A program made the position numbers and the translations under genes. Positions 2,278 through 52,925 of a stretch of 64,000 bases of DNA are shown piece after piece (the stretch's first letter is position 1; each line of letters opens with the position of its first letter). The stretch comes from Gekko japonicus (taxonomy: Eukaryota): contig NW_015173141.1 in the NCBI RefSeq assembly GCF_001447785.1, positions 1 through 64,000 of the forward strand, written 5' to 3'. Below the pieces are notes generated by a model. That model was not told where the DNA came from. It saw nothing but the letters and a program-made list of their open reading frames with translations, and made no database searches.

Positions 2278-3849
2278 AGGATTCAAGCCACAGGTCAGTG
2301 ACACTTTCCTCCAATGCAAGGAAACTTCCCCTGACATAAGAAGGTCTTCTACTTAGAACAGTGTATGAGGGGGAGGCTTCTTGCATGGGAGTAAGTGCCT
2401 CCACTAGCAGAATTGCTCCACAGGCTCCAAACCACAATCTAGTCTTGAGAAAAAGAATTCTATATGGATGTGATTTGACTGTAACTTGTCCCTCTTTTAC
2501 ATTGGCTTCAGAAGCTCAGTGCTTAGTTTCTTTTTAACAACATAAAAAGTACCCATCAAAACTAGTTTTTGTGGCTGGAGTTACAATTACTTAAAGACTG
2601 ACTCTTCTCTTTTCTTGTCTCCCTGATTCCCTCCAACTACCCTTTCTTGGCAGTAAATACTGTCTCAAATGTCTACAAATGGTTTGGTCCATTAGAATTC
2701 ATATGACATTTTACATGGGAGGGAAGAGTGTGAAATGTTGTTTTCTCTGTTGCTGCCATATAAATTATTCATCTTTGTGATTTGGAGGATGACTTTTCCA
2801 TGTAGATAAGAAGTCACCTCGTTTACTGTATACATCCCACAGTCAAAACAATCAGAGATACAGAACAAAAGGGTTCAGCTGAACATATACTGCATTGTGT
2901 GGGGACTGCAAATAACACATTCAGGAATCTCTCTTGACTGAACCTTCCATGAAGTTATTTATGAACACAAACTACTCACTGTGATATGTGGTGCCATACT
3001 GCCAAGCAGTATATTGCTCTTTTATTTCATGAAAAAATAAAATGGCTAGGATTTTCTGACATTCAGAGCAGAGATACAGGCTTCTTGTGTAAAGCGAAAG
3101 CCATTGAAGCTAAGGTAGGAAGCAATTAGTTGCAGCAAATAAAACTCCTTACATCCTGTTTCAGTTATCAGTCATGTAGAATGTACAAGGATATATAACA
3201 TGCCTTGAAAATCACACTTAACAACAGAAAGTGCACCACATTGGTTTGTGGACTGATTCTTGTGCTTCATTGATATAAATACTAATTCAGATTCATATAA
3301 AATGTGAATGGCCACATAATATATACATCCATTATACATGAACCAAGAAAAAGAGGCCTGTATTGATTTACAGAAACATTTGAGAAACAAAAAATATTTT
3401 TGTTACCTTTCATTGATGTTCTTTTGTTACTTTTTAAGAGTACCCATCAAAATATCTCCAGTGTGCATACATTTAAATTTTCCAGAACTCTTCATCAGCT
3501 AGCTTTCCAGTTAGCGGTGGGCATGAACCAGGAAAATATGGTTCAGTTTGTGCTTCGTGATATGCCCCAGTTCCAAACCATGGACTGTCACATATTTTAG
3601 CCACCTGACATTTCCCCAGAAAGCACTTTCCTAGGGGCATCTTCTTTGGGGGGCATAATTTGGGTCCCATAAATCCAATCCTCACCAAACCTGGAGAGCA
3701 AATAGAGAAGAGACAGCCAGAGATCCTGTACAAGTTTGGCATTTCTAGCTTACACAGGCTCCATTCTATACACTCCTAAACCTCCTGAACCTGTACCTGT
3801 CAAAATGACAGCTGACAGGCAGTCATTTTGACAGGCTCAGGTTCAGGAG

Positions 3850-4306
3850 TGTCAGCGAGCTGCCATGATTTATCTGTTGTATATATGATTCACCTGTCTG
3901 CGCCTCTTAACCCTGCATTACTATCTGTATTACTTCATATGTTGATAGATGTTACCCAGCAACCCCAGCGCATGCTCAAATGCGAGCAGCTTGTTAGCGA
4001 AATGCATACCATGTCCAGGGCAGGTGGTCAGATAAGGAAGAATGTTTTGGGAACTGCTTTAGTTAGGAGCCTGGGAAAATATATATTTTGAGCAAACTAG
4101 GCCGTTATGATTCTCAGCACTTTGGCGCTATTTACCCTGAGCGGGAAAATGTCCCATTGGTGTAAACCCTGTTTGAATCTCTTTCATGTTACCTGCTTGT
4201 ATTCCTGTACGCCATTCTAAACAGAAATCTTGTAAGTGAAACACCTTTTAATAAAGTCATCCTCTGGACTGAGAGAAGTGGCTCGTTAATCGATGGTATC
4301 ATCACA
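3850..4306 (+). repeat. 5' LTR of chromovirus (457 bp)
   Basis: tgtcagcgagc...gtatcatcaca, AATAAA at 4250-4255, about 7 substitutions versus the 3' LTR by eye. Confidence 0.97.
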
Positions 4307-4357
4307 GACTGTTTAGAATCATTCTTTCCTAATCGTCCCACATCTATCACCACTGAT

Positions 4358-5854
4358 ATGGATGACGACGAGAGGAAATCTCTACCCAAAGACCAGACCC
4401 TGGATGGGGCCGAGTCGAAGGACCTCGCTGCAGAGGAGGGAGCGGAGATGGAGAAATCCGCGCCGGCTACTCCTGCAGGGGCCACCGGAATCAAGAAGGT
4501 GACAGCGACACTGTATATGTCTCCATGGACTAGCCAAGAACCCCCACCGAGTTGGAGCGATTTCGGCGCAGAGGGCCTCAGGCAATCTCAGGAGCTAACA
4601 GGAGCGAGAAGGCGAGAGAGCTCCCACGATTGGAATGTGGCGGCCCATCAATTTGCTGAGACAAGCAGCCGAGTTACGGCAAGGTCGAAAACACGGAGAG
4701 ACCGCATCTTCCCGGAGGAAGGGGTCTGGGAACAGCTCCAAGAGACGAATCGCCTGGTGAGAGATTTACAGCACACACTGAGAGAGGTGGTCGAAAATCT
4801 ACCTCACCTGGTGCGAGACGTTTACGAACAAGTGGAATATGAAGCTCATATCGGAGCAGGCCAAGGCCAGGCCGCCCAGCCGCAGGTCCAAGCCGGCCAG
4901 CAACAGGCGGCCCCGGCCCAGATTCCGGTACAGCAGCAGCAACAGCAACAGCAGCAACAGCTTCCCCTGATTCCACAACAACCCGGGGGCCCGCCGGCAG
5001 TACAGGCTGGGGTGCCCAGGGCTAAAGACCTGATCGAAGCAACCTTTGATGGGAATCCCGACGAACTGCCCTACTTTGTGGTCAGAGTACAGAAGTTCCT
5101 GGATCGGTCGGGACATCTATTCCCTGATGACAGTAGCCGAATTGATGTGGTAGCATCCCGCTTGAAGGGAGCGGCGGCAACATGGTACGTCAGCTTGCAT
5201 GCATCCCGAGGCCCTGAATTGAGAGACATTCAGGCTTTCATGTGGGCACTAAGGCGGCAGTTTGAAGATCTGAATGCTGCCCCTAGAGCCCGAGCCTACC
5301 TACGAACCTTGAAGCAAGGGAAGAAAACGGTATGAGACTACGCAGCGGAATTCAAACTGCATGCAGCAAAGCTGGCTGACTGGCCAGACCATATTTTGGC
5401 CGAGTTTTTCAGGTTGGGATTAAATCAGGAAATCAGAGAGACGGTCCTGAGATCGGTGGATCCTGTTTCCCTGACAGCATGGATCCAAGAGGCGGAGAAC
5501 GCAGAGAACCGGCTGAACACTCTTAGGCTGGATGTAGCGGCATCGAGTGGGAGAAGCGCCACCCCCCACCCGAAACAGAAAATCTACAAGCAACCAGACG
5601 CGCAGAGAGAACAACGGATGAGGCAAGGTTTGTGTCTGAAATGCGGGGGAAAGGGCCATTTTGCAGCCGAATGTGGGAAGAAGCTGGCAAGTGAAAGCAG
5701 CAGCAACCAAGGCACGCCCAAGGCAACCATGAAGAAGAAGCCAACGGGCAAACCCAAATTCATGAAAGCCTTGCAAGCTTCACCCGAAGAAGACGAAGGG
5801 GACTCGAGTGAGGAATCAGAAGGCCATTCGGGAAACGAACTGGTCCTGTTGTAA
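4358..5854 (+). pseudogene. gag: gag (coiled coil, Q-rich linker, PEG10/RTL-type capsid, CCHC knuckle) with in-frame TGA at 5333-5335
   Basis: ORFs 4358-5335 and 5396-5854 share a frame. Capsid motif TFDGNPDEL...FPDDSSRIDVVASRLKGAAATW and zinc knuckle CLKCGGKGHFAAEC. Confidence 0.9.
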
Positions 5855-5893
5855 GAGGGGCAACCCAGCAGGACCCTGAGAGCAACGCGCCTC
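5830..5893 (+). promoter_or_regulatory. -1 programmed ribosomal frameshift signal (G GGA AAC plus stem or pseudoknot)
   Basis: Heptamer 5830-5836 lies in the correct gag phase. Stem ggtcctgttg (5842-5851) pairs with cagcaggacc (5866-5875). The protease ORF is in the -1 frame. Confidence 0.8.
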
Positions 5894-5895
5894 AA

Positions 5896-8800
5896 ATGGT
5901 GAGCAATCCCCCCTCCCTGTTATTCGTGACTGTGTCATTAATAAATCCCCTCCTGGGGACGCATGTGCGGGTGAAAGCCCTGATTGATTCAGGGTGTGGA
6001 AGAGACTTAATCCATCCAGCGGTAGTAGCTGGATTGGAAGCCGGGTTAACCCGCTTAAAAGACCCTATACGGTTTACCCAAATGGATGGGTCCCCAATGA
6101 AGCAACCCTGTCTCCACAAAACAATGCCACTGAGACTGGGGGTGGGAGAGCATTGGGAAGACAGATTGTTTATAGTTACCCCAAATGCAAGGTTCTCCCT
6201 GGTGCTAGGAGCACCCTGGCTGTGGCAGCACGACCCGCACATCATATGGGAAGAGGGGAAGGTGAACTTTGTCTCCCAGAAATGTCTCACCCACGTCGGG
6301 AAGGAAGGGGGGGGAGCAGACCAAGGGAGAACTTCCCCTCAGCTCTTCTGACAGAGGAGGAGGTGTCGTCCATTCCCCCAGAATATAGAGACTTACAGAG
6401 AACGTTTGGGGAGGAAGAAGTGGATGAACTGCCCCCTCACAGACATTCTGATTGTCGGATTGAATTAATACCAGGGGCCAAACTTCCCAAGGGGAAAATT
6501 TACGCGATGGGGCCAGCAGAGAGGGCGGAACTACGGAAATTCATTGATAAAAACCTTGAAAGGGGTTTTATTCGACCCGCCTCCTCCCCATTCGCGGCTC
6601 CCATATTGTTCCGCAAGAAAAAAGATGGGGGGCTACGGCTATGCACGGACTACCGGGGCCTGAACGCGGTGTCAGCAACTAACGCATACCCCATGCCTCT
6701 GATTAAAGACTTACTTGCAGAGGCTTCAAAAGGGAAAATCTTCTCCAAACTGGACTTGAGAGATGCTTACTTCCATGTGCGCATCAAGAAAGGGGATGAA
6801 GCGAAGACCGCTTTCAACACACCGTTGGGGCAGTTTGAGTACCTAGTCATGCCCTTCGGCCTTCAGGGCAGGCCAGGGGTGTTCATGAACTTAATAAATG
6901 AAGTGTTACATAAGCATTTATTCAAGGGGGTCCTTGTGTATCTGGATGATCTGCTTGTGTACTCCCCCGACCTCCCCTCACACGTGAAATTGATGAGGAA
7001 AGTCCTGCAAACATTGTACAAACACAAGCTCTTTGCTAAACTGTCAAAATGTGAATTCCATAAAACACACATTGATTTTTTGGGCTACCGCATTTCGGCG
7101 GGAGGGTTGGAAATGGACCCGAAAAAAGTAAAAGATGTCCTGGGCTGGGAGGTACCTCAGACTCGCAGGCAATTGCAAGCATTCCTCAGATTTGCCCAAT
7201 TCTATAGGACTTTCATCAAGAACTTTGCCCAAGTGGCCCTCCCATTAACTGACTTATTATAAACGAAAGGGAAGGGACCAGAAGCCACGAGACCGGGGGC
7301 CAGATTGGCTTGGTCACCGGAATGCCAGCGGGCTTTCCAAACCTTGAAAACTCTGTTTACGTCTGAACCGGTGTTAGCACATCCAGATGAGATGAAAAAA
7401 ATTGTGGTTCAGACAGATGCTTCGGATGTGGCCATGGGGGGGCTATTTTGCAGGAAAGGCCAGATGGAAAATTACACCCCCTCGCATACGTATCCAAGAA
7501 GTTCACTGAGGCCGAACGCCGCTGGTCTGTGTGGGAGAAGGAGGCGTCAGGGATACACCTCGCGTTGGTGACGTGGAGGCATTGGTTGGAGGGGGCCAGA
7601 GTCCCATTTGAAGTCTGGACTGATCACAAAAATCTAGAAACGCTAAAAAAAACCCGTAGCCTGAATGCGAAACAGCTGCGTTGGGCGGACTTCTTCTCCA
7701 AATTCCAGTTCACCCTTCATCATTTCCCTGGGGTGGCTAATTCTCTGGCAGATGGACTGTCCCGTCTTCCCCAACATGCAAGCCAAAGGGACATTGTCAT
7801 AGACTCTGTTTTCACTCCTGCCCAACTGGGAGGGGCGGTGACGACCCGGAGCCAGGCAGCAGACATTCCTGCGGTGCAGGAAAAAACCCCGGCCCTTTTG
7901 CCTACGATGGAGTGGGAGGGGAGATTTCTCTCGAGCCTTTCTGACCAGGAGCTACAAATCTTGGAAGGGAGGGAGGGGTGTAAACAGAGGGAGAATGGCT
8001 GCTGGTACAAAGACAATAAATTGTATGTCCCTATTTCGCTGAGGGGGGAGGTGATGGGGGCGGCACATGGATCCAAATTGGCTGGCCACTCAGGATTTCT
8101 GAAGACTTTGCAACTGTTGCAACGACAGTTCTGGTGGCCTAGTATGCGCAAGGAAGTCTCCAAATTCGTTCAATCTTGCCAATTATGTGCCATGACTAAA
8201 CCTAGAGGGGGGGAAACCCCGGGATTGCTACACCCGTTGCCAACTCCCAACAGACCTTGGGAAGTGATTTCTATGGATTTCATAACGGATCTGCCCTTGA
8301 GCAATGGGAAAACGGTGATTTGGGTGGTTGTTGACATGTTCTCTAAACAAGCCCATTTTATTCCGTTTCCTTCCCTGCCTACTGCAAAAGCTTTGGCGAA
8401 AGCTTTCCTATCCCATGTAATAAAATTACATATGGTACCTAGGAAGGTGGTATCAGTCAGGGGAACACAATTTGTTTCCAAGTTTTGGGCTGAGGTCATG
8501 AAGTTATTGGGGGTGGAGAGGGGGCTCAGTAGCACTTATCACCCAGAAACCGACGGACAAACAGAACGGGTCAATCAAACATTGGAACAATATATGGTAC
8601 CTAGGAAGGTGGTATCAGTCAGGGGAACACAATTTGTTTCCAAGTTTTGGGCTGAGGTCATGAAGTTATTGGGGGTGGAGAGGGGGCTCAGTAGCACTTA
8701 TCACCCAGAAACCGACGGACAAACAGAACGGGTCAATCAAACATTGGAACAATATCTTCGTTGCTTCACCAATTACCAACAATCGGACTGGTGTGAGTTG

Positions 8801-9451
8801 TTGCCATTGGCTGAATACTGTTACAACAACGCTTATCATGTATCCATTGGTATGTCCCCCTTTAAAGCGGTGTACGGCTACGATAGTCCCCCTCTCCCAA
8901 TGCTGCAAGGGGAGGAAATTGAGGTCGGTGGAGACGCACAGGCTTGGTGTAGAAAGTTGCAGGAGGCCTGGCCAATTCTAGGTAAAACGTTAGACGAGGC
9001 CAAGGCCGCCTACAAAAAACAGGCGGACAGGGGTAGGGTGGAGGGTTGGGCTCTGACGCCTGGAGAGATGGTGTATGTGTTGACGAAAAATATCAAAATG
9101 TTGAGGCCCAGCCGGAAATTGGGCTGGAAGTACATTGGACCGTTTGAGATCAAGCGGGTTATTAATGACGTGGCGGTTGATGTGGTTTTACCAAAGAACC
9201 TGAGAGCTTTACATTCTGTATTTCATTTCAGCCTCCTGAAAAGGGACACGGGGTCCTCGGAGTGGCGAGAGAAACACACCTCGCCTTTACCAGTTTTGCT
9301 GGAGGGGCAAGAACATTATGAGATCAAATGTATTCTGGACTCTAAGCATAGAAATGGGAAATTGTGGTATTTGGTTGAATGGAAAGACTTTGGGCCCCAG
9401 CACCGGGAATGGGTGGAAGAAGGGGATATTCGGGCCCCTTACTTGATCTGA
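5896..9451 (+). pseudogene. pol: pol: aspartic protease, RT, RNase H, integrase, chromodomain; disrupted by frameshifts (~6310, ~7440) and stops (7260, 9449)
   Basis: LIDSG, RLCTDYRGLN, YLDD, QTDASD, TDHKNL, H..H..CQLC, ISMDF, GQTER, GPF motif, YEIKCILDS...YLVEWKDF. Confidence 0.95.
8430..8755 (+). repeat. Perfect 162-bp in-frame tandem duplication in the integrase core
   Basis: MVPRKVVSVRGTQF...NQTLEQY occurs twice, with period 162 (8431 and 8593). Confidence 0.95.
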
Positions 9452-9578
9452 CGGTTTCATCGGGACTTCCCGGACAAGCCGGGAGGTCTCCCGGGTTAAC
9501 CGGGAAATTCGCCATGTGTAGCCGGGAGATTCCGGGAGATTCCGGGAGGAGTGGGAAAAGAGTTTGGAGGGGGCAGAA

Positions 9579-10035
9579 TGTCAGCGAGCTGCCATGATTT
9601 ATCTGTTGTATATATGCTTCACCTGTCTGCGCCTCTTAACCCTGCATTACTATCTGTATTACTTCATATGTTGATAGATGTTACCCAGCAACCCCAGCGC
9701 ATGCTCAAATGCGAGCAGCTTGTTAGCAAAATGCATACCATGTCAAGGGCAGGTGGTCAGATAAGGAAGAATGTTTTGGGAACTGCTTTAGTTAGGAGCC
9801 TGGGAAAATATATATTTTGAGCAAAGTAGGCCGTTATGATTCTCAGCACTTTGGCGCTATTTACCCTGAGCGGGAAAACGTCCCATTGGTGTAAACCCTG
9901 TTTGAATCTCTTTCATGTTACCTGCTTGTATTCCTGTATGCCATTCTAAACAGAAATCTTGTAAGTGAAACACCTTTTAATAAAGTCATCCTCTGGACTG
10001 AGAGAAGTGGCTTGTTAATCGATGGTATCATCACA
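9579..10035 (+). repeat. 3' LTR of chromovirus (457 bp)
   Basis: Direct repeat of 3850-4306, preceded by purine tract ggaaaagagtttggagggggcagaa. Confidence 0.97.
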
Positions 10036-10641
10036 AGGAGTGTATGGAATGGATCCTGTGCAAGCTCGAGACACCAAACTTAAAGGGAATGTAGAGGAGC
10101 ATTGAGGGAGGTGTGCTGTGAGTTTGATGTTTCTAGCTTGTACAGGATCCTTCTATACACTCCTGAACCTCCTGAACCTGCTCCTGTCAAAATGACCGAG
10201 GTTCAGGAGAGTATAGAATGGATCCTGTGCAAGCTAGAAACATCAAAGTCACAGGGGACCTCCCCTGGATGCTCCTCAACATGCCCTCCAAGTTGTTGCT
10301 TTGAAGTTCTGTAAACATTTTGACTGAGCAAGACATTCTGTCAGGAAATGTCTTCCCTCATGAACCAGTACGAACCTCCATGAACAGCTTAAAAGTTCGT
10401 GGAACATTCATGCTGGGTGCCTGCCATCAGCTTGACTTTGGGAAGCACAAACCAGCCAAAATTCATCACAAGCTTTAGTTCATGATCCAGTTCATGCCAG
10501 GATCTATTTCCAGTACAACCACCTCCCTCCTCAAATGGGGAAGGGAATAGGAGACAATGTTTTCCAGTGTGTGGTATGGAAGTCTCAAGTATGGAAGTCT
10601 CAAACATCTTCTAGTTTTAAAATGGAATACAGGGTCTGTTG

Positions 10642-10847: not shown

Positions 10848-12565
10848 GTCTGTTGCAGACTTAATGAGAATGGATGTGGTTCAGAGCAAAACAGACTTTT
10901 AATTTTCACAAAGTTCCATTAAAATGACCTCACATCCTGCACCATAAGTGGGGGGGTTACATTCCTCAGGAGAGCATTTCTTTTCCCTCCCTCCCTGATG
11001 CCCTTTTTTTTGTTCCTTGTACTGAATATCTAGCCTGTTGAAGAGTTTGGGAACTTGAAGTTTACATACTGTTTTCAATATTTTAATTGATCTCAACAAA
11101 AAGTATCAGAGATGCTGTGAATTTTGCAGAAGTGTGATCGATGTTCAAAGCCCACTCCTTTCCCCATTAGTTTTGCAAGGCTCTCCTTGCAGAGAATTGA
11201 GGAAACCATGCAGATTCTCAGGAGGGCATGTGTGTTTCAATGCAAAGACTAGTAGGAGTGGGTAAGTGAAAGCAAGGGGGGGTCCTGTATGCAAGGAAAT
11301 GTTGCAGGGGGTTGCAGGCGAAAGAAACGTTGCAGGAAAAAGAAAATAAATGTGGGGGCTAATGAGAGTAGCCATGAACTGGACAGTGGGGGGAAGTGAT
11401 CAGTAGAGAAGCTACAGACACAGTCATAAGGAGGATCTGTGTAATTCGTTTCCACCAACATTGGTCCATGCAGATTAGGAACAGAGATTAAACCTGGGAC
11501 GTCCTAGGTGCAAAGCAAAGGCTCAGCCATGGAGCCACAGACTGTCCCCTATTGCTGTACAACAAAATCAGGATGTTCAGCATGTGTAACTGACAAATGA
11601 AGTCAAATCTGCAACACTTTGTATTATACAGCCATTGATTATGTTATTGGATATATAGAAATTGCATTACAAAAGACTTAGAGACTTGGTCAGCATTAAA
11701 ATTGGATTTTAATGATATATAGATAGTTCTTAGAGTTATTGAATAAGTAGTCTTGGCATTCTCTTCATTTGTCTGTCCCCTATTGTTAGCTTTCCCACAT
11801 TTAAGGCAGAGTTCCTCTGAACATGGAGGTTTTGCATATCTTAGAGATATGGGCATTAATACAAGGTGTTGCAGATATTGTGACCTTTTATGTGTATTTA
11901 TAGTTCTGAATATGCTGCTTCCTCTATAAATGATGTAACTGGAATAAATTGAATTATTGTACATAATATTTTACATACATAATGGCTTACCCACAAGAAA
12001 AAAAAATATGCCCCACAAGCTACAAAATCCTGCTTTCAGCTGGTAGCTTTTGTACTTCTGCAGTCAGCAAACAGAACTATCTGCATATCCAGTAAAGACA
12101 CACATCCTAAAGCATCATGGTCAAGTGATATACTGTTTGAGCACAGACCACTCACAGTTCATTGTATTTTGGCACCTAGATAGCCAGGTACATTATTTAA
12201 ATGAACTGTTTGTCATTTTTCATTGACAAACACCAGATCGTGCAGACATGATGGGCCAAGAATACAGAGATAACATACAGTTTGAGACACCCCCTTTGTT
12301 AGTCATGAACGTTTTAAACAGTAAGAATTTTGTGGCCAGTGGGCAGGGGGAGCTGGGGGGGGGGAACTACAGTTCCCATGAGGCAGTATGAGAAAATTGT
12401 TTCCACGTCTGAACTGTTCACCTTTACTAGTAACAAATGCTGAATGGGTAACTGTAAAAGACAGAGGAAGAGACTTCACATTTGTAAATCACTAACTGTG
12501 AGATGTGAATGTTTAAATAAATCAAAGAATGCAGGGAACTTTTGAAATATAAATAAAAACAAAGC

Positions 12566-13439
12566 ATGGCGGGGCAGAGAAGGCCGCCCGAGAAGCAGCT
12601 GAAGAAGACGGGCGGGACTTCCTGTCCAAGCCCTTCCCCTGCTGTCAATCAACAAGAGGGTGAACTTTTGAGCCATCTGCTGGAGGAACTGCAAAAAATT
12701 AACCAGAAGCTGGATAGTATGGAAAGTGCTTACACTGTGCAGCAGAAAAAGATGACAGAGACAGCTGACAAGGTAGATGATATTGCAAAGAAATGTTTGG
12801 CATCAACGGAAGAGATACAGAAAGTTAAGAAAAAGGTCATTAAAGTGGAAAAGTACCGACAGGATAATAAACTGTTATTGCTTCAAATGGAGAAAGCAAA
12901 CTTGAGTCTTCGATTCCAGGGTTTGAAGGAAGAGGAAAAAGAGAACCTCAGAGACATTTTGGCAACAGCTTTAGCACCACTGACCGGCAATCAAGCGGAA
13001 AAAATAAAAGAGGAGAAAGAAAAATAAATTGCCTGCAGAAGTGGTAGTGAAATTTACAAAGCAACATCTCAGAGATCAGATTTTAAAAGCAGCTTCGGCA
13101 ACACCCTTGAACATTGGAGATCGACCGATAAGAATTTTGAAAGATGTTTCATTTGAAATCAGAATGAAGAGAAAAAAATATAAAGGGTTGACCATGTTCT
13201 TACAAAATCATCAAGTGAGTTACAGATGGTTGGTGCCAGAAGGACTGGTCTTTAAATTTAAAGACAAAAGAAAAAAGATAGACTCTATCTTTAAAGCTCA
13301 AGACTTTTTGAAGAGGCACGCCATTTCAGAAGAAGAAGCAGAACTTGCCAAGTGGATGTCGGGAAACAGCAAAGAAGACAGCAGTTCTGAGGGAGAGGTG
13401 AAGGATGAGGAAGACAAAGGAGCGACTGGCACAAAGTAA
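12566..13439 (+). pseudogene. L1-clade ORF1p (coiled coil, partial RRM, CTD), broken at ~13027; no ORF2 follows
   Basis: Coiled coil, then LSLRFQGLKEEEKENLRD, EVVVKF...RDQILK, IRILKDVS, SYRWLVPEGLVF. Confidence 0.75.
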
Positions 13440-35873: not shown

Positions 35874-36230
35874 TGTAATGTATTGAAATGATTACATGAA
35901 TCACCTCATAGGACTCCCATGTTAAGCTTCAAGCCAGACCAGGGCTCCTCTGAGCGAACTTCCTATTGGTCGCTTCGTAACAGCGACCAATCAGAACGAT
36001 ACCATTCCCTAGGAGGGAAAGACTCCCATTGGTCTTTATTCTAGCAATCTCATTGGTTGTTATTTGTAAATAGGCGTGGCTACATTAGCCCGGTTATGTT
36101 TAAAAGGAGCATAAGCTCCCACTGTTTTCTGTTCTGGTTTCTTACTGAGTTAGTGCTTGTTCGTTACTTCCAATAAAGCTGAATCACTTGCTGAATCACT
36201 GTACGAGTCCTTTGTTAGCGCGATCTAACA
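35874..36230 (+). repeat. 5' LTR of Mag element
   Basis: tgtaatg...ctaaca, several CCAAT/ATTGG boxes, tttaaaa TATA-like box, AATAAA. Confidence 0.97.
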
Positions 36231-36232
36231 AT

Positions 36233-36250
36233 TGGCGACGAAGGTGGGAT
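36233..36250 (+). promoter_or_regulatory. Primer binding site, tRNA-Ser(GCU) type
   Basis: TGGCGACGAAGGTGGGAT, 2 nt after the LTR, complementary to a tRNA-Ser 3' end ...ATCCCACCTTCGTCGCCA (tRNA sequence recalled, not searched). Confidence 0.85.
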
Positions 36251-39200
36251 GTTAGAGCAGGTAGGCAGCCCTGCGGACATCCACACTTCGGACTCGGAAG
36301 AAAGCGAGCAGAGCACAGCAGCCGATCCGGCGGAGGCGCCACCAGCTCCGGTGCCCAAGTCTCCCCCGATGGCTGGAAGCCAGAAGTTCGAGTGCTTCGA
36401 ACCCTCCTCAGAAGACTGGGACTCCTACCTGTCCAGGTTCGAGTTCCATCTGGAGACCCACGACATCACCGATGAGGCGAAGAAACGAGCATGCCTCCTG
36501 AGTTCCTGCGGGAAGGGGACCTTCGACATAGCCAGGTCGTTGGTGGCCCCAACTGATATAAAGACTGTCACCTACGCTGACATCACGGAGAAGCTTAAGG
36601 CTCACTATTCTCCACAACCGTCGGAGATCGCCTGCCGGCACGCTTTTTACAAGCGGAACCAGGCCGGAGGCGAGACCATCGCAGATTTCGTGGCGGCCCT
36701 TCGCAAAGCCGCACGGCCATGTAATTTCCACAACGTGGAGGAAGCCCTCAGAGACCGTCTCGTCTGCGGTCTCAAAGATGAAAGGCTGCAACAGAGGCTG
36801 TTCGCCCGCACCACCCTGACCTGGGCAGTGGCCTACGAAGAGGCCGTGGCCGCGGAAGCAGCGGAGAAGTCCACGAAGGAGGTCCGCCAGCGGGTGGCAG
36901 AGCCCAGTATACACGCTCAACGAGACAGCGAGGGCGAAGACGCGGATGATGACGTCAACGCGGTTCGAGGCAAGCGGACCCCAGCGAAGACTACCAACGT
37001 CAAGCCTTGCTCCGGTTGTGGCGGGAAACACCAGCGCGACTCCTGTTGGGCTCGTGATGTCGACTGCAGAGCGTGTGGGCGGCGTGGTCATCTGGCCAGA
37101 GTCTGCAGATCAGCAAAGAAGGATCCCTCAACTAACAACCGGTCAGCGCAGAGGGGCACTCCAGTCAGCACCCAAGGCAAGACCCGTTCCTCAGCATCGG
37201 AAGCAAGCTGCCAGTTGACGGCGACCTTGTCGAGCGCATCGGCCGTAAATCGCACCAGCAGCCAGGGCAAGATCACCGTGACTCCACTCCTCGACGGCCG
37301 ACCCTGTACAATGGAGGTGGACTCAGGATCGTCCGTGACGGTGATTTCTGCCGCGTCCTGGCGCCAGTTGTTCCCGAACCGAAGCCGGCGGCGGCTCCAG
37401 CCTGCGGGAACCAGAGTGTCCGACTTCCAGGGCAACCGAATTCCCTTGGCCGGACGGGACTCTGTTACTGTTGAGTATAAGGGGAAATGTGTTAAACTGT
37501 CATTCCTGATTGCAGAGGGAGACCGGGTTAACCTGCTAGGGTTAGATTGGTTTGAGCCATTGGGCATTGGTATTTCTGGGATTAACAGGATGTCTGAAAA
37601 TAAATGGGGCATGCTGTACGACCTGTTCCCTGATGTATTTGCCGAAGGGTTGGGGAGGTACAAGGGCCCCCCGGTTGCGTTTGACTTAGATCCGTCAGTC
37701 AAACCTATTAGGTTGAAGTATCGGAAAGTACCTGTGTCTCTCAAACATAAGGTGGAAAAAGAGATTGACAAACTAGTTGAGCAAGGGGTTTTAGAGCCAG
37801 TACCATACAGCAAATGGGAGACCCCGATCGTAACCCCTGTCAAATCAGATGGGTCCATACGACTATGCGCCGATTACAAATGTACGATTAACAAGGCGCT
37901 GCAGCAACATTCGTACCCGGTCCCGGTAATAAGCCACATTTTGGCTTCCCTGGGGGGTGGCAAGATTTTCGCCAAATTTGACCTGGCCCAGGCATACCAG
38001 CAGTTGCCTGTCACCCCGGAGGCTGCCGAGGCCCAAACAATTGTAACCCACCAAGGGGCTTTTAAAGTGAACAGGCTGCAATTCGGGGTCAACGTAGCAC
38101 CTGGGATTTTTCAGGGCCTCATGGAACGTCTACTAAGGGGGGTACCTGGCACAGTGCCCTATTTTGACGACGTGCTGATTGCGGGCGGGTCTGAACAGGA
38201 ACTACTGGACCGGGTTAAAGAGGTCCTCAGGCGTTTTCAAAATGCCGGTCTCAGAGTTAAGCGCTCAAAATGCACGCTCGGGGTGGAAAGTGTGGACTTC
38301 CTGGGGTTTCGCATTGACGCAGAGGGAGTCCACCCCACGGATGAGAAGGTATCTGCAATCCAAAACGCCCCCAGGCCGGTGAGTAAGAAGGAGCTCCAAT
38401 CCTTTTTAGGACTCCTGAATTTTTATCATGCGTTTTTACCGCATAAGGCATCAGTGGCGGCCCCTTTGCACGCGCTTTTGCACAAGGAGGCAAAATGGAA
38501 GTGGGGGCAGGCCGAGGAAAAGGCTTTTGTGGGAGTCAAGGAGCTGCTGACATCTAATGCCGTACTCACGCATTATGATGAACACAAGCTCCTGGTGTTA
38601 GCTGCTGACGCTTCACCTTTTGGAGTAGGCGCAGTTTTAAGCCATCTGATGCCTGATGGGAGCGAAGCGCCTATCGCTTTTTATTCTAGATCACTATCTG
38701 CGGCAGAGCGGAACTATGCCCAGATAGACAAGGAGGGTCTGGCGTTGGTAGCGGCTGTCAAAAAGTTCCATGATTTTATTTTTGGCAGACGATTTTTGCT
38801 GGTCACTGACCACAAGCCGCTACTGGGGATTTTTGCGCCCGATAAGCAATTGCCAAACATCATGTCCCCACGCATGCTTAGATGGGCGATATTTTTGCAG
38901 GCTTATGATTTTGACTTAGAGCACCGGCCTGGGAAAGCGATTGGGCATGCGGATGCCCTCAGCCGGTGCCCGGTGCCGGACATTGGCGCAGACCCTGCCC
39001 CCGCCTGTGAGGTCTTGGCAATTGAGGAGCTTCCTCGACCCCCGGTATCATCCAGGGACATTGCAGCACACACGGCCAAGGATAGCGTGCTGTCCCGAGT
39101 ATTAAACTGGGTTTGGAGGGGGTGGCCGGTTGGAAGCGTTGAACCGGAGTTCGGCCCTTACAAAAGCCGTCAAAATGAACTATCCATTTCTAAGGGCTGT

Positions 39201-40412
39201 GTATTATGGGGGAACAGGGTGGTGGTTCCTGACAAACTCAGGACGAGAGTGTTAGAGTCGCTGCACGAGGGTCACCCCGGTATGGTACACACCAAAGCGT
39301 TGGCCAGAGGGTATGTCTGGTGGCCGGGGCTGGACAAAGAGATCGAAGAATGGGTACGAGGGTGTCCCAAATGCCAGCAAGTCAGACCCGATCCCCCACA
39401 AGCTACACCCCAAGGCTGGGAGTCATCTGGTAAACCCTGGGCCAGATTGCATATAGATTTTGCTGGCCCTCTCCAAGGGCAAATGTTCCTAATTGTGGTG
39501 GACGCTATGTCCAAATGGCTGGAGGTCGTGCATATGAAATCGACCACATCACTTGCTGTGATCCATGCGCTCCGCCGACTTTTTGCCACCCACGGGTTGC
39601 CTGACGTCATCGTCAGTGACAACGGGCCTCAATTTGTGTCTGAGGAATTTAGGCTCTTCCTCACGAGTAATGGCATACGCCAAATGACTTCGGCCCCTTT
39701 CCATCCGGCATCTAATGGCCAAGCCGAACGGATGGTCAGGACGGCCAAAGAGGCCCTGGGTAAAATGGACGAAGGGGACTGGAGCCAGAGGCTGGGCTCC
39801 TTTCTTTTGCTGCAGCACACCACCCCCTGTAGTGCTACAGGCCGTAGTCCGGCCGAATTGTTAATGGGGCGGAGACTCACGACCCGTTTGAACCGAATGC
39901 ACCCAGACCTCACTGAAGAGCAATCCGAGCGTACCACGGCGCAACCGAAGGTGCGCATGTTTGAAAAAGGGGACAAGGTTTTCGCACGAAATTATGCAAA
40001 CGGGCACTTATGGCTTCCTGGGGTTATATCCGACTCTGTGGGTACTCGAATGTATGTGGTGCAGTTAGCTGACGGTCGAATATGGCGGCGCCACATAGAT
40101 CAGTTAAGGAGACGTTGGGCTAGGGACAGCGCTGACTCTCCGACGGCTGAATCCCCTGATGTCGAGTGGACACCCCCAGAGCAGGCGGTGAGTACCAAAA
40201 GGCCCGGTACTGTCCCCGAGTCAGGGCAGAACCCTGTGTGCGGGGCTGAAATCCCAGTCGAGTCTGTGCCTGATCCAGGCTGTAGTGAACCCCACTCTGA
40301 CCCACAACCTTGTCTGCCCGTGGAGCCTGCACCGCTCCGCAGGTCCCAGCGTTCGCGGCAAATGCCGACTTATCTGAAGGACTATGAGTGTAAATACTGT
40401 TGGAATAACTGA
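36249..40412 (+). CDS. gag-pol: Gag-Pol polyprotein, 1387 aa (alternative start ATG at 36369)
   Basis: Two Zn knuckles (CSGCGGKH..C and CRACGRRGHLARVC), VDSG protease, YFDD RT, ADAS and TDHKPL RNase H, H..H..C..C plus HIDF, SDNG and GQAER integrase. Confidence 0.96.
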   Translation: MLEQVGSPADIHTSDSEESEQSTAADPAEAPPAPVPKSPPMAGSQKFECFEPSSEDWDSYLSRFEFHLETHDITDEAKKRACLLSSCGKGTFDIARSLVAPTDIKTVTYADITEKLKAHYSPQPSEIACRHAFYKRNQAGGETIADFVAALRKAARPCNFHNVEEALRDRLVCGLKDERLQQRLFARTTLTWAVAYEEAVAAEAAEKSTKEVRQRVAEPSIHAQRDSEGEDADDDVNAVRGKRTPAKTTNVKPCSGCGGKHQRDSCWARDVDCRACGRRGHLARVCRSAKKDPSTNNRSAQRGTPVSTQGKTRSSASEASCQLTATLSSASAVNRTSSQGKITVTPLLDGRPCTMEVDSGSSVTVISAASWRQLFPNRSRRRLQPAGTRVSDFQGNRIPLAGRDSVTVEYKGKCVKLSFLIAEGDRVNLLGLDWFEPLGIGISGINRMSENKWGMLYDLFPDVFAEGLGRYKGPPVAFDLDPSVKPIRLKYRKVPVSLKHKVEKEIDKLVEQGVLEPVPYSKWETPIVTPVKSDGSIRLCADYKCTINKALQQHSYPVPVISHILASLGGGKIFAKFDLAQAYQQLPVTPEAAEAQTIVTHQGAFKVNRLQFGVNVAPGIFQGLMERLLRGVPGTVPYFDDVLIAGGSEQELLDRVKEVLRRFQNAGLRVKRSKCTLGVESVDFLGFRIDAEGVHPTDEKVSAIQNAPRPVSKKELQSFLGLLNFYHAFLPHKASVAAPLHALLHKEAKWKWGQAEEKAFVGVKELLTSNAVLTHYDEHKLLVLAADASPFGVGAVLSHLMPDGSEAPIAFYSRSLSAAERNYAQIDKEGLALVAAVKKFHDFIFGRRFLLVTDHKPLLGIFAPDKQLPNIMSPRMLRWAIFLQAYDFDLEHRPGKAIGHADALSRCPVPDIGADPAPACEVLAIEELPRPPVSSRDIAAHTAKDSVLSRVLNWVWRGWPVGSVEPEFGPYKSRQNELSISKGCVLWGNRVVVPDKLRTRVLESLHEGHPGMVHTKALARGYVWWPGLDKEIEEWVRGCPKCQQVRPDPPQATPQGWESSGKPWARLHIDFAGPLQGQMFLIVVDAMSKWLEVVHMKSTTSLAVIHALRRLFATHGLPDVIVSDNGPQFVSEEFRLFLTSNGIRQMTSAPFHPASNGQAERMVRTAKEALGKMDEGDWSQRLGSFLLLQHTTPCSATGRSPAELLMGRRLTTRLNRMHPDLTEEQSERTTAQPKVRMFEKGDKVFARNYANGHLWLPGVISDSVGTRMYVVQLADGRIWRRHIDQLRRRWARDSADSPTAESPDVEWTPPEQAVSTKRPGTVPESGQNPVCGAEIPVESVPDPGCSEPHSDPQPCLPVEPAPLRRSQRSRQMPTYLKDYECKYCWNN

Positions 40413-40485
40413 TGTACAAAGGTTGATTGCATGTATGTAAATAATAAAACAATTGGGATGATGGCTTAATTTAGGGGGGAGGAAT

Positions 40486-40842
40486 TGTAATGTATTGAAA
40501 TGATTACATGAATCACCTCATAGGACTCCCATGTTAAGCTTCAAGCCAGACCAGGGCTCCTCTGAGCGAACTTCCTATTGGTCGCTTCGTAACAGCGACC
40601 AATCAGAACGATACCATTCCCTAGGAGGGAAAGACTCCCATTGGTCTTTATTCTAGCAATCTCATTGGTTGTTATTTGTAAATAGGCGTGGCTACATTAG
40701 CCCGGTTATGTTTAAAAGGAGCATAAGCTCCCACTGTTTTCTGTTCTGGTTTCTTACTGAGTTAGTGCTTGTTCGTTACTTCCAATAAAGCTGAATCACT
40801 TGCTGAATCACTGTACGAGTCCTTTGTTAGCGCGATCTAACA
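40486..40842 (+). repeat. 3' LTR of Mag element
   Basis: No difference from the 5' LTR found by eye. Confidence 0.97.
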
Positions 40843-41039: not shown

Positions 41040-43434
41040 CCCACAGATTTTAAGGATGTATTTTCCTGTTTGTTTAAGGTATTATGTTGTGTTATCTTTC
41101 ATAATACAAAATATTCTCACAGTTTTCCTCTCCATATTGTTATAGAAAGGGCTTGTATGTTTCTCCAGTATGCTGCAAGTAAGATTCTTGCCACTGCTAG
41201 AAAGATTGCTATCAATTCTTTTTTGCCTTGTTAGAAAAAGAATTTTCTGGTATCAAAGGTAGTTTACTGCCCATTATTGTATGCATTTCCTGCAACACTT
41301 GTCTCTAGAAAATATGAACATACGCACACACCCACCAACTGTGCAGGAAGTCTCCTGTTTGACCACATTGTTTCCAGCATTTTTTTTTTGGCCACTTGTT
41401 GCTTTTATTCTATTTAAATGTGTTGGCATTATGTACCATCTAGTTGTCATCTTAGACATTTGGAATCGAATGTTAAAGATATTTGATTTAAGGCTAGAAG
41501 TAATCTTGTCCAGTCATCGTCTGTTAATCTATTTTGGCAGTCTACATTCCATTGTTTTTGACTTTTCAAAGTCTTGAAGCTACCAATGGAAAACAATATT
41601 TGATATATTTTAGAGATGAGACCTGATGAAGATCCATCATTTTCTTTCATTAGTTGTTCAAAATCATTTAAGGATAGGGGCCTAGGTTGTCAATCAATCA
41701 ATCAATCAATCTAATTTATTGCGGCAGGAGCCAGTAAAACAATACAATTCTGATATAAAAGGGATTAAAACAGTAATAACATGGGAATAATATAAAAACA
41801 TTAACAGGAGAGAGTTAATAACATTAGTAAAGTAAAATAGTGTTAATAAGAGAATCATACAATTTTTTCAGCTAAAATAAGTTTGCATTTCCTAATAGCT
41901 AAGCAACAAAATTTTGCCACAGTGTAAGTCACTGAGCTCTGAATGTCTTCTAAGAGGAATTTGCGAAGGACTTCTGGCCTAAAGTCAAGATAAGACTGCA
42001 AAGGGCTAAATCTAGACAGAAGGAGTAGTATAAGATGGTTTCGTTCCTCCTGACAGAATCTGCAGAACAGGAGGACATGAGTAATTGATTCCACCATATT
42101 AGCCATGCATGGGCATATACGTTCATGCATTGGGACTCGGGTGAATTTACGTTGCAGTGCAGCGGAAGGAAGTGCCTCAAAACGGGCTCTGGAAAAGGCC
42201 CATCTATAGGGTTCATAGGCAATGTTAACTATATAAGGGGCAACAGTAAAATTTGGCCAAGACTTTATGTTTCTGTAGTTCTCAGGTAGCAAAGCTTCTC
42301 CATTTTGTGATTCAATATGATGAAGCCTCTGCACGACAGCTGTTCTTGCCTTGTATAGGCTTCCATAGAAGAGATCTTCTGGGAGTAGGCCAATCTGATT
42401 TAATTTATTAAGAATTTGTGTGGACCAGGCAGGGTAAGGATCCAAGGCTAAAAAGTAAGGTATTAAACCCTTTGGGTTGTAATGAATTTTTAGCCAGAGC
42501 ATTATAGCCTGCTCCCAGACCTTTGTTTCAACTCTGAGTAGCCCAGCCTAAGTGACATTAGAGGTACTTCTAGGAACGCCAAATAGAGATCTAAGAAATT
42601 TAGACTGAACCTTTTCAAGGGTCTTTAGATTGGCAGAAAGTCCGATTTGTGAGCCATACAGGAGTTGAGCCAATGATTTTGCCTGGAAGTTTAAGGCCAT
42701 GGGGAGAAAGCCTGCACCTTTCCTTCTGGGGCCTAGGTTGTATTGTTTGTGAGTTCCTTAACATGTGTGCAGTCTGCAGGAATCTACACCAAGGAATTGT
42801 TTGCCCCACCTTTACTTCCAGTTGGGTCTTTTCTAAGATCTTGCCCTTATCATATGTCTCGTAATCTGGTTATCCCTGCCTGATGCCATTTCAAGAAAGC
42901 TGCATGTTCTTTCTCTTGGGGGAACCACTCTTGATTTTAAAAAAACTTTAGTACTGAGTTCTCTAGGGCTAAGATCTGCTTCCGTTTATCCCAAATTTTG
43001 CAGGTTGTATCCAAGAGATGATCTTTAATTATTAGAGGTCCGTGTTTAGATTCCCCCCACCCATAAGCCTCTGCAAGCAAAAGTGGAGTTGAGAAGAAAC
43101 TTTCAATTTGCAGCCAGTTTTCCTCTACATTCCCTGTGCATGATTGTATAACATTTTCCATAATGGAGAACTCATAGTATTTTGTTAAATCTAGTATTCC
43201 TAACCCTCCTCTTTCTGTTGGTCTACAAATTGTTTCAAAGCTCACCCTTGGGATTCTATTTGCCCAGAAAAATTTGTTGATTGATTGTTGCCACTTTTGT
43301 AAGTCTTTTTTTGTGTGTGTGTGTGATGTTGATTGGGACCATGCCTGAACAAGAATAAATATTTCGAAAGTATAAAGCTTTTCACCTAACTTAGCCTATC
43401 TCCCCACGTTAATTTTAGTTGATTCCATTTTTTT
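41040..43434 (-). mobile_element. Degenerate L1-clade ORF2 3' part, interrupted by an RTEX-like insertion
   Basis: ICRPTERGGLGILDLTKYY, LISKIYQIL...QKQW, TRWYIMPTHL and CWK..C remnant. Confidence 0.75.
41690..42614 (-). mobile_element. RTEX-like non-LTR 3' fragment with (ATTG)n tail
   Basis: RWAFSRARFEALPSA...HERICPC...ESITHVLLFC, tail tcaatcaatcaatc. Confidence 0.75.
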
Positions 43435-51334: not shown

Positions 51335-52925
51335 CTTACCATGTTCGACAGACATGATCAGACGGTGAGCCGATCAGGGATATGTTCATACTGCATCAAG
51401 CACTTTCATAGGCCAACAATGGTTTAAACCTGCGAAAGAACATAATACGTACCTTACCTGGAGATTGGCCGGCATTACTAGAATAATTAATTCAAAAAGC
51501 ATAAGATTCTCACAAAAACTGAAATAGAAAGAAAACACATTATTAAAATTCATTGAATACTTACAATTAAGGCATTGACTAGAATCCACCGGATTTAAGC
51601 AATCAGTCTCACTTCCCATTACGGACTTTGAATGCATACTATTTAAAGGCTATAAGAAAAGAGGTTTAATCTCCAAGATTTATCCAACTATTGCTTGAAT
51701 GATCCAATATGAAAATAATGTGTTATCAATCACCCAAAGAGTGATTAACACATGGAATTCACTGCCACAGGAAGTGGTGGCGGCTACAAGCATGGACGGC
51801 TTCAAAAGGGAATTAGATAAGCATATGGAGCAGAGGTCCATCAGTGGCTATTAGCCACAAGGTATAGATAGGGGCTCTAGGGCAAGTGATGCTCTGTCTT
51901 CTTGGTGCTTGGGGGGGGGGGTCAACAGTGGGAGGGTTTCTAATGTCCTGGCCCCACTGGTGGACCTCCTGATGGCACCAGGTATTTCTGGCCACTGTGT
52001 GACACAGAGTGTTGAACTGGATGGGCCTTTGGCCTGATCCAACATTGGCGTCTCTTATGTTCTTAGTGTGGCATTCAGATCTCCAACAAATAATTAGTGA
52101 AGAACAATGGGAAAATATATGGAGAACTCAAAATAATATCTTAAAATCCCTAGAAATTCAAGAAGCATCTAATAAAGTGCTGTTGAAGCGGTATTTGACA
52201 CCGGCAAAAATCTCGCATATAGTCCCACAAGTTTCACCGTTATGTTGGAAAAGCTGTTGGGGAACGGGCTGATTATTGGCATACTTGGCGGGCCTGTAAA
52301 CATATTTTAAACTTTTGGAAATCAGTTATAAAACACATTCAAACACTTACCAGCTATGAAGTTCCTCTTGACCCGAAAATTTTATTTTTAAATCTTTGGC
52401 CTAATGAAAGTCCACCTATCATAAGAAAAAAGCTGATTGATGTATTATTAACGGCTGCAAAAGTTACAATAGCCAAAAATTGGAAAGAGAGTCACCCTCC
52501 TAACATTACTCAATGGCTTCATAAGCTATGGGACTTTTTCCTATTAGAAACAATTTCCATATATAACACCAATGACCAAAACGATTGTGAGATCTATAAC
52601 CCTTTGGGGAAATGGTACCCTATACTAGAAAAGATAACCTTTGATAAATTTGACTGGGAAACCATTACCGAAGCCAAATATAAAATAATGTTATATGGTT
52701 GAAATGGTTCTTGCTAAAGTTCTACCCAGTTTCATTGTATTAGTACTAATGTGTTACGTTCCTTGTTAACAGAATTTAATCCATTTAACCGAATATTACT
52801 ATATGTATTCCTAGGGGGGAAATGTTAATACATAAGAACTGTTATATACCGAATAATAGGTGAAGAATCCGCTGTATGATTAAGTTCTATTTACTTTTGT
52901 TATGTTTTTGAAAATTAATAAAATA
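51335..52925 (+). mobile_element. L1-clade ORF2 3' fragment, interrupted by CR1
   Basis: ISEEQWENIW...YLTPAKISHI..SPLCWKSC, AAKVTIAKNWK, AT-rich 3' UTR ending aataaa. Confidence 0.8.
51728..52065 (+). mobile_element. CR1 3' fragment nested in L1
   Basis: Homologous to 32330-32665, ends ctcttatgttctta. Confidence 0.85.

What the first reader, a model, noticed from the sequence alone, without database searches (positions are those of the whole stretch)
4214..4319. tRNA-independent self-priming signature (Tf1-like) in a reptile LTR element
Seen: no TGG-type PBS follows the 5' LTR. Instead CTGTTTAGAAT (4309-4319, 2 nt after the LTR end) is the exact reverse complement of ATTCTAAACAG inside the LTR (4214-4224), which sits in an initiator-like gccatt context about 36 nt upstream of AATAAA. 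Known: S. pombe Tf1 primes reverse transcription with the first 11 nt of its own transcript, and this was proposed for the Tf1/sushi group. Inference: the TSS is near 4214 and the element self-primes. The 11-nt length matches Tf1.
Basis: partly seen in the sequence, partly recalled or inferred. Interest (0 to 1): 0.75.

Follow-up and report, generated by a model that had tools for sequence, protein, structure and literature searches.

The report
Self-priming lizard-type jumping gene
This vertebrate jumping gene, closest to lizard elements, lacks the usual tRNA primer site and instead carries 11 bases that exactly complement the predicted start of its own RNA, so it likely primes its own copying into DNA, a trick shown in fission yeast and already inferred in print for this group.

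Summary
Observation confirmed. 4309-4319 is the exact reverse complement of 4214-4224, begins 2 nt after a 457-bp 5' LTR (3850-4306), and has no TGG; 11 of 20,000 shuffled LTRs match as well. The element (3850-10035) is a young but broken Ty3/gypsy chromovirus whose RT groups with Anolis proteins. Added here: (1) 4214 is one of only two strict initiator matches in the LTR; (2) in related elements whose LTR end is fixed by two copies, 8 of 9 loci (6 of 7 families) have a 9-13 nt self-complement at the same place, each family with different letters, none with TGG; (3) an unrelated gypsy element in the window has a TGG site and no complement. Not shown: the start site (RNA reads too few), the cut, the primer, or a host-tRNA exclusion; the flanking 'pretzel' helices are not above chance. 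Self-priming is already described as common to the Tf1/sushi group, fungi to vertebrates, and this scan noted it before in moss and diatom elements. Verdict: real, likely self-priming, a new member of a known kind.

The parts
3845..3849 (+). 5-bp target-site duplication, left copy
   Evidence: identical to 10036-10040
3850..4306 (+). 5' LTR, 457 bp, TG...CA
   Evidence: 98.5% identical to 9579-10035, 7 differences (4 transitions, 3 transversions)
4212..4218 (+). strict initiator-type motif YYANWYY with the A at 4214; predicted transcription start
   Evidence: one of 2 matches in the 457-bp LTR, the other at 3932; motif definition recalled; start not measured
4214..4224 (+). predicted self-primer arm (11 nt)
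   Evidence: exact reverse complement of 4309-4319; duplex -11.4 kcal/mol, pair probability 0.94-0.97
4250..4255 (+). AATAAA polyadenylation signal (LTR R region)
   Evidence: only AATAAA in the LTR; partly paired in the predicted R/U5 hairpin
4271..4280 (+). possible U5 arm of a U5-leader helix with 4320-4328 (Tf1 'pretzel'-like), unproven
   Evidence: 9 bp, -7.1 kcal/mol, but 472 of 2000 shuffles do as well
4307..4308 (+). 2-nt spacer between LTR end and primer-binding site
   Evidence: offsets of 0-3 nt in relatives
4309..4319 (+). self-complementary primer-binding site, no TGG
4358..5854 (+). gag (capsid-like region and CCHC knuckle), interrupted by a stop at 5333
   Evidence: PF03732 E 1.7e-6; stops and knuckle motif
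5812..6351 (+). protease frame (DSG motif), out of frame with RT
   Evidence: no Pfam hit
5988..7262 (+). reverse transcriptase frame (YLDD; RVT_1 about 6615-7094), ends in a stop
   Evidence: PF00078 E 2.6e-27; 60% identical to Anolis proteins P0001, P0012
7263..9451 (+). RNase H (split over two frames), integrase, SH3, chromodomain; 162-bp tandem duplication at 8430-8753 inside the integrase core
   Evidence: PF17917, PF17919, PF17921, PF00665, PF24626, PF00385 (chromo 23.3 bits, just under the 25.1 cut-off); duplication
9560..9578 (+). polypurine tract and 2-nt spacer before the 3' LTR
9579..10035 (+). 3' LTR, with the arm's second copy at 9943-9953 unchanged
10036..10040 (+). 5-bp target-site duplication, right copy

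Best explanation
This is a Ty3/gypsy chromodomain LTR retrotransposon with no tRNA-type primer site, whose family likely primes reverse transcription from its own RNA: transcription is predicted to start at 4214, and the first 11 nt would fold onto the complementary site 2 nt past the LTR. By analogy with Tf1, RNase H would cut after base 11, leaving an 11-nt primer that RT extends back through U5 and R (about 84 nt, 4308 to 4225) before strand transfer to the 3' LTR. Shown: element anatomy, the exact complement, its rarity, absence of TGG, recurrence with changed letters in relatives. Inferred: start site, helix in vivo, cut, priming. This copy is itself defective (stop in gag, frameshifts in pol).
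For: Exact 11-nt complement 2 nt after the LTR end, 11 of 20,000 shuffles. Arm begins on one of 2 strict initiator motifs in 457 bp. Of 9 related loci with an LTR end fixed by two copies, 8 (6 of 7 families) carry a 9-13 nt exact complement starting 0-3 nt after the end, 0-24 of 1500 shuffles each, none with TGG; 1 of 27 control positions in those loci reaches 9 nt. The families differ in letters on both arms, including three loci that group with fish proteins. Motif-anchored look in the L030 clade: 9 of 10 loci have a 10-12 nt complement after ACA|GT. An unrelated gypsy element in the window has a TGG site and only a 5-nt complement. In organism A's DNA contigs and RNA reads, diverged subfamilies differ at 4204-4208, 4234, 4240, 4244, 4266 but none of the 40 listed variant rows falls in either 11-mer, and matches begin at 4213 or 4304 and end at 4320 (31 rows hidden). 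RT groups with two Anolis proteins, SH-aLRT 100. Papers state self-priming is common to Tf1/sushi elements of fungi and vertebrates (PMC10085805, PMC6317226, PMC4600332; passages).
Against: No measured start site, primer or cut. The two flanking helices that Tf1 needs are weak here: U5-leader -7.1 kcal/mol, matched by 472 of 2000 shuffles and 302 of 750 window segments; U5-IR about -3 to -4.5. No TATA box at -25 to -30; the AT-rich box is about 130 nt upstream. In the three fish-like relatives the arm starts at G after T, not on an initiator A. One family (L017) lacks the complement (6 nt), though its LTR end is doubtful. Host tRNAs could not be screened.
Confidence: 0.85

Rival explanations
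1. Transcription starts upstream (for example about 25-30 nt after the AT-rich box at 4076-4089); the 11-bp helix is an internal R/leader helix, and any primer would be released by an internal cut rather than being the RNA's capped 5' end.
For: The helix is predicted equally (0.94-0.97) from starts at 3932, 4105, 4115 or 4214; no TATA near 4185; fish-like relatives' arms do not start on an initiator A.
Against: The arm's first base coincides with a strict initiator (2 matches in 457 bp); arms of 8 of 13 listed elements begin pyrimidine-A against a 14% background, and 11 of 13 begin pyrimidine-purine (six of the 13 came from a blind scan); some diverged subfamilies begin to match exactly at 4213.
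Confidence: 0.09
2. A host tRNA fragment or other small RNA primes at 4309-4319, and the LTR complement is a by-product (for example primer sequence copied into the element) or a packaging structure.
For: Half-tRNA priming without TGG exists in Ty1/copia lineages (PMC6317226 passages); host tRNAs could not be screened (no genome; no tRNA gene in the window).
Against: PMC6317226 reports half-tRNA sites only in copia; the site differs freely between related families while always matching the family's own LTR, which a fixed host RNA would not predict; Rfam gives no meaningful match in 4150-4450.
Confidence: 0.04
3. Chance complement or a one-off micro-inversion in this copy, without function.
For: Blind scans without a defined LTR end find many 9-11 nt complements (22 of 69 upstream regions against 9 of 69 pol regions), so short complements alone are cheap.
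Against: At a fixed LTR end the chance is about 0.05%; both LTRs keep the arm; 6 of 7 related families show it at the same place.
Confidence: 0.02

Closest known systems
Tf1/Tf2 of Schizosaccharomyces pombe (and Tj1, Tosmo1-3, Tcry1)
   Same: Ty3/gypsy chromovirus; site after the 5' LTR complementary to a stretch of the LTR; 11 nt, as for Tf1, where RNase H cuts between bases 11 and 12 (PMC7175516 passage); SH3_Tf2-1 domain.
   Different: Vertebrate host; gag and pol in separate frames; the two flanking 'pretzel' helices required by Tf1 (PMC10085805) can be drawn here but are not above chance; start site, cut and primer unmeasured.
[quoted passage not shown]
   Same: Chromodomain integrase, vertebrate relatives in Anolis, Crotalus, Xenopus, carp; AATAAA close to the LTR 3' end as in the Sushi LTR model (PMC3601003); self-priming reported for the group from yeast and vertebrates (PMC6317226, citing Butler 2001). 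Amn-ichi's source paper is titled as a full-length chromodomain gypsy element of Anolis (reference list).
   Different: A distinct squamate-type family (60% RT identity to the nearest named proteins); no named sushi or Amn reference was in my tree; whether Butler 2001 or Piskurek 2009 describe the site in reptiles I could not read.
Plant Tcn1 chromoviruses and TAR copia elements
   Same: Predicted self-priming by the same criterion, a complement of at least 10 nt starting 0-5 nt after the LTR (PMC6317226), which this element meets.
   Different: Different hosts and, for TAR, a different superfamily.

Membership tests
Ty3/gypsy chromovirus | LTRs TG...CA, TSD, PPT; gag-PR-RT-RH-IN order | tested here: met
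Ty3/gypsy chromovirus | chromodomain at the integrase C-terminus | tested here: met
   PF00385 E 6e-5 at residues 643-681 (just under the curated cut-off); most close homologues carry PF00385
Tf1/sushi group (V-clade) | RT phylogeny with vertebrate/fungal chromoviruses | tested here: inconclusive
   groups with two Anolis proteins at SH-aLRT 100, inside a vertebrate set at only 84; quick tree, no named Tf1, sushi or Amn reference
Tf1/sushi group (V-clade) | no tRNA-type (TGG) primer-binding site | tested here: met
   no TGG in 4307-4325; control element has one
Tf1/sushi group (V-clade) | site 0-5 nt after the 5' LTR complementary over at least 10 nt to the LTR | tested here: met
   11 nt at offset 2; 11 of 20,000 shuffles
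Tf1-type self-priming mechanism | the complementary arm is the 5' end of the transcript | tested here: inconclusive
   strict initiator at 4214; RNA reads too few, no start pile-up
Tf1-type self-priming mechanism | three-helix 'pretzel': two flanking helices beside the primer helix | tested here: inconclusive
   U5-leader 9 bp, -7.1 kcal/mol, not above chance; U5-IR weak; a nested R/U5 hairpin is predicted instead. The leader helix beats shuffles (5 or fewer of 300) in 4 of 12 relatives
Tf1-type self-priming mechanism | RNase H cut after the primer; primer attached to minus-strand DNA | not testable with these tools
   needs biochemistry or particle cDNA
Tf1-type self-priming mechanism | no host tRNA or fragment matches the site | not testable with these tools
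   no host genome held; no tRNA gene in the window

The most novel reading that the evidence does not exclude
A recently active squamate-type family self-primes with a capped 11-mer but without Tf1's pretzel pseudoknot: the primer helix instead closes a nested R/U5 hairpin that also masks the 5' LTR AATAAA, coupling priming to poly(A)-site choice. That would be an amniote variant of tRNA-free reverse transcription, out of reach of 3'-tRNA-fragment silencing.
Probability: 0.2. Interest if true: 0.5.

Novelty: new member of a known kind. Interest (0 to 1): 0.27.

Why it matters
It extends sequence-level support for tRNA-independent priming to a young squamate-type chromovirus family and adds cross-family compensatory evidence, which earlier vertebrate claims (as cited in open papers) rested on by inference only. 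If confirmed by CAGE and primer mapping it would give an amniote example of self-primed reverse transcription; elements that do not use a tRNA site would not be expected to be targets of the 3'-tRNA fragments that act on mammalian ERVs (abstract start of PMC7472051; the escape is my inference). It also matters for annotation: PBS finders keyed on TGG miss such elements. It is not a new mechanism.

Tried and rejected
Own genome not held, so no copy-by-copy covariation in the host. The look-up of sequencing runs: no RNA holder listed. Laying three RNA runs gave 35, 4 and 19 reads, mostly from diverged subfamilies, no start or end pile-ups and no depth at 4326-4418: no verdict on the start site or expression. 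Single-protein scan of viral contigs found no relative; the two-arm pattern found 0 matches there. Blind inverted-repeat scans without a defined LTR end are too noisy to count as evidence. Left out of the two-copy test: L014 (AT-rich, short repeat, end unclear), L018 and L022 (3' copy cut by the contig end), L039 (LTR pair broken by indels; it does show the L030-family site), L068, L023 and L080 (repeats are not clear LTR pairs), and loci whose only repeat is a contig-end overlap or that have no LTR pair; 9 of 89 loci qualified. Rfam: only a chance match, E 5. The careful tree did not finish; the quick tree is reported. Pretzel flanking helices not above chance in this element. Butler 2001 and Lin and Levin 1998 are not held; seen only as citations. 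PMC4340606's 'self-priming' is an RT-PCR artefact, irrelevant. Searches listed no paper on self-priming in a reptile element (one search listed 25 of 7,294, none with the term), which does not cover subscription journals. No supplements were read; those of PMC6317226 hold only plant data by the passages seen.

Full report
Observation. The stretch 4214-4224 is the exact reverse complement of 4309-4319, 11 nt with no extension either way. The 5' LTR is 3850-4306 and the 3' LTR 9579-10035, both 457 bp, TG...CA, differing at 7 places, with a 5-bp target-site duplication and a polypurine tract. The second 11-mer therefore starts 2 nt after the LTR end; there is no TGG in 4307-4325; AATAAA lies at 4250. 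With the published criterion (complement starting 0-5 nt after the LTR; PMC6317226 methods passage), 11 of 20,000 dinucleotide-shuffled LTRs reach 11 nt or more, as do 10 of 10,643 mock sites in the window.

What the element is. Pfam finds retrotransposon gag, RT, RNase H, integrase zinc finger and core, Tf2-like SH3 and a chromodomain in that order: a Ty3/gypsy chromovirus. It is young (LTRs 98.5% identical) but broken: a stop in gag at 5333, protease, RT and RNase H in different frames, and a 162-bp tandem duplication in the integrase. Best protein matches are from Anolis and Crotalus (41-44% over RH-IN); in a quick RT tree of 52 rows it groups with two Anolis proteins and one unnamed protein at SH-aLRT 100, within a weakly supported (84) set of reptile, amphibian and fish sequences. 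'Reptile' is thus likely, not shown; no named Tf1, sushi or Amn sequence was in the tree.

Test 1, start-site context. A strict initiator motif (YYANWYY, recalled definition) occurs twice in the 457-bp LTR, with the A at 3932 and at 4214, the first base of the arm. There is no TATA box at -25 to -30; an AT-rich box lies at 4076-4089. RNA evidence gave no verdict: 35, 4 and 19 reads from three runs, mostly diverged subfamilies, no start pile-up. Folding cannot place the start, because the helix has probability 0.94-0.97 from any of four starts tried.

Test 2, relatives. I fetched 89 related loci (10, 79). In 9 the LTR 3' end is fixed independently by two copies with different flanks. Eight of the 9 (6 of 7 families) have an exact 9-13 nt complement to their own LTR starting 0-3 nt after the end, each reached by 0-24 of 1500 shuffles, and none has TGG. 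The letters differ between families on both arms, which is compensatory change at family level; three of these loci (L011, L021, L027) group with fish proteins. The miss, L017 (6 nt), has a doubtful end, since its 3' flank is an inverted piece of the LTR. At 27 control positions in the same loci only that artefact reaches 9 nt. In the clade of L030, anchoring on the shared LTR-end motif gives 10-12 nt complements in 9 of 10 loci (six are one family). Arms begin pyrimidine-A in 8 of 13 elements listed, but in none of the three fish-like ones. Blind scans without a fixed end are noisy (22 of 69 upstream regions against 9 of 69 pol regions) and are not counted.

Test 3, subfamilies in one organism. 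Contigs and reads of organism A laid at 85% likeness pile up on 4200-4300, showing diverged subfamilies that share this region. Listed variants fall at 4204, 4205, 4208, 4234, 4240, 4244 and 4266, none in either 11-mer among 40 rows (31 rows hidden); some records begin to match at 4213 or 4304 and four contigs stop matching at 4320. This fits conservation of both arms, but invariance says nothing on pairing.

Test 4, internal control. A second, unrelated gypsy element in the window (35874-40842, identical 357-bp LTRs, one open frame, no chromodomain hit) has a TGG site 2 nt after its LTR and only a 5-nt complement.

Test 5, the Tf1 'pretzel'. Tf1 needs two helices beside the primer helix (PMC10085805 passages). 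Here 4271-4280 can pair with 4320-4328 (9 bp, -7.1 kcal/mol), but 472 of 2000 shuffles do as well, and the U5-IR stem is weak. The nested prediction is instead a long R/U5 hairpin inside the primer helix (z -2.0, 6 of 200 shuffles) that pairs four of the six AATAAA bases. In 4 of 12 relatives the leader helix beats shuffles. This feature is inconclusive and is the only opening for a variant mechanism.

Mechanism. Most likely (0.85) the family's RNA starts at about 4214, its first 11 nt anneal to 4309-4319, RNase H cuts after base 11 as in Tf1 (PMC7175516 passage) and RT extends the 11-mer through 4308-4225; the stretch from 4225 to the poly(A) site 15-30 nt after 4255 would serve for strand transfer. 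Anatomy, complement, rarity and recurrence are shown; start, cut and priming are inferred. Rivals: upstream start with an internal helix (0.09), host tRNA fragment (0.04), chance (0.02).

What is known. [quoted passage not shown] The V-clade of Amn and Sushi elements spans fish, amphibians and amniotes (PMC2774666). My searches listed no paper on the site in a reptile element, but subscription papers were out of reach. Earlier notes of this scan report the same layout in moss chromoviruses and diatom copia elements (unchecked), none in this element's relatives.

Verdict. Real feature, interpretation supported, new member of a known kind; interest 0.27.

Noticed in passing
window 35874-40842: Second, unrelated Ty3/gypsy element with identical 357-bp LTRs, 5-bp target duplication, TGG-type primer site and one uninterrupted 1387-aa gag-pol frame without chromodomain hit: a very recent insertion; used as internal control.
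   Followed up: partly
window 3733-3849 and 10036-10294: The chromovirus is inserted into a short element rich in direct and inverted repeats, MITE-like.
   Followed up: no
window 8430-8753: Perfect 162-bp in-frame tandem duplication inside the integrase core.
   Followed up: no
window 4076-4089 (and 9805-9818): Perfect 14-nt AT palindrome in U3, the only TATA-like box near the predicted start, about 130 nt upstream.
   Followed up: partly
window 4248-4289: Predicted hairpin pairs four of six bases of the LTR AATAAA, which could mask the 5' LTR poly(A) signal; prediction only.
   Followed up: partly
L011, L021, L027 (3' LTR arms at 4670, 5743, 4559): Fish-like relatives have their arm 316-415 nt from the LTR end (93 nt here) and starting at G, so R is much longer or the start lies a few bases upstream of the helix.
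   Followed up: partly
window 12557-13439, 41855-43395, 52223-52702: Decayed LINE-like fragments (ORF1- and RT-tail-like by eye); no Pfam hits for those tested.
   Followed up: no
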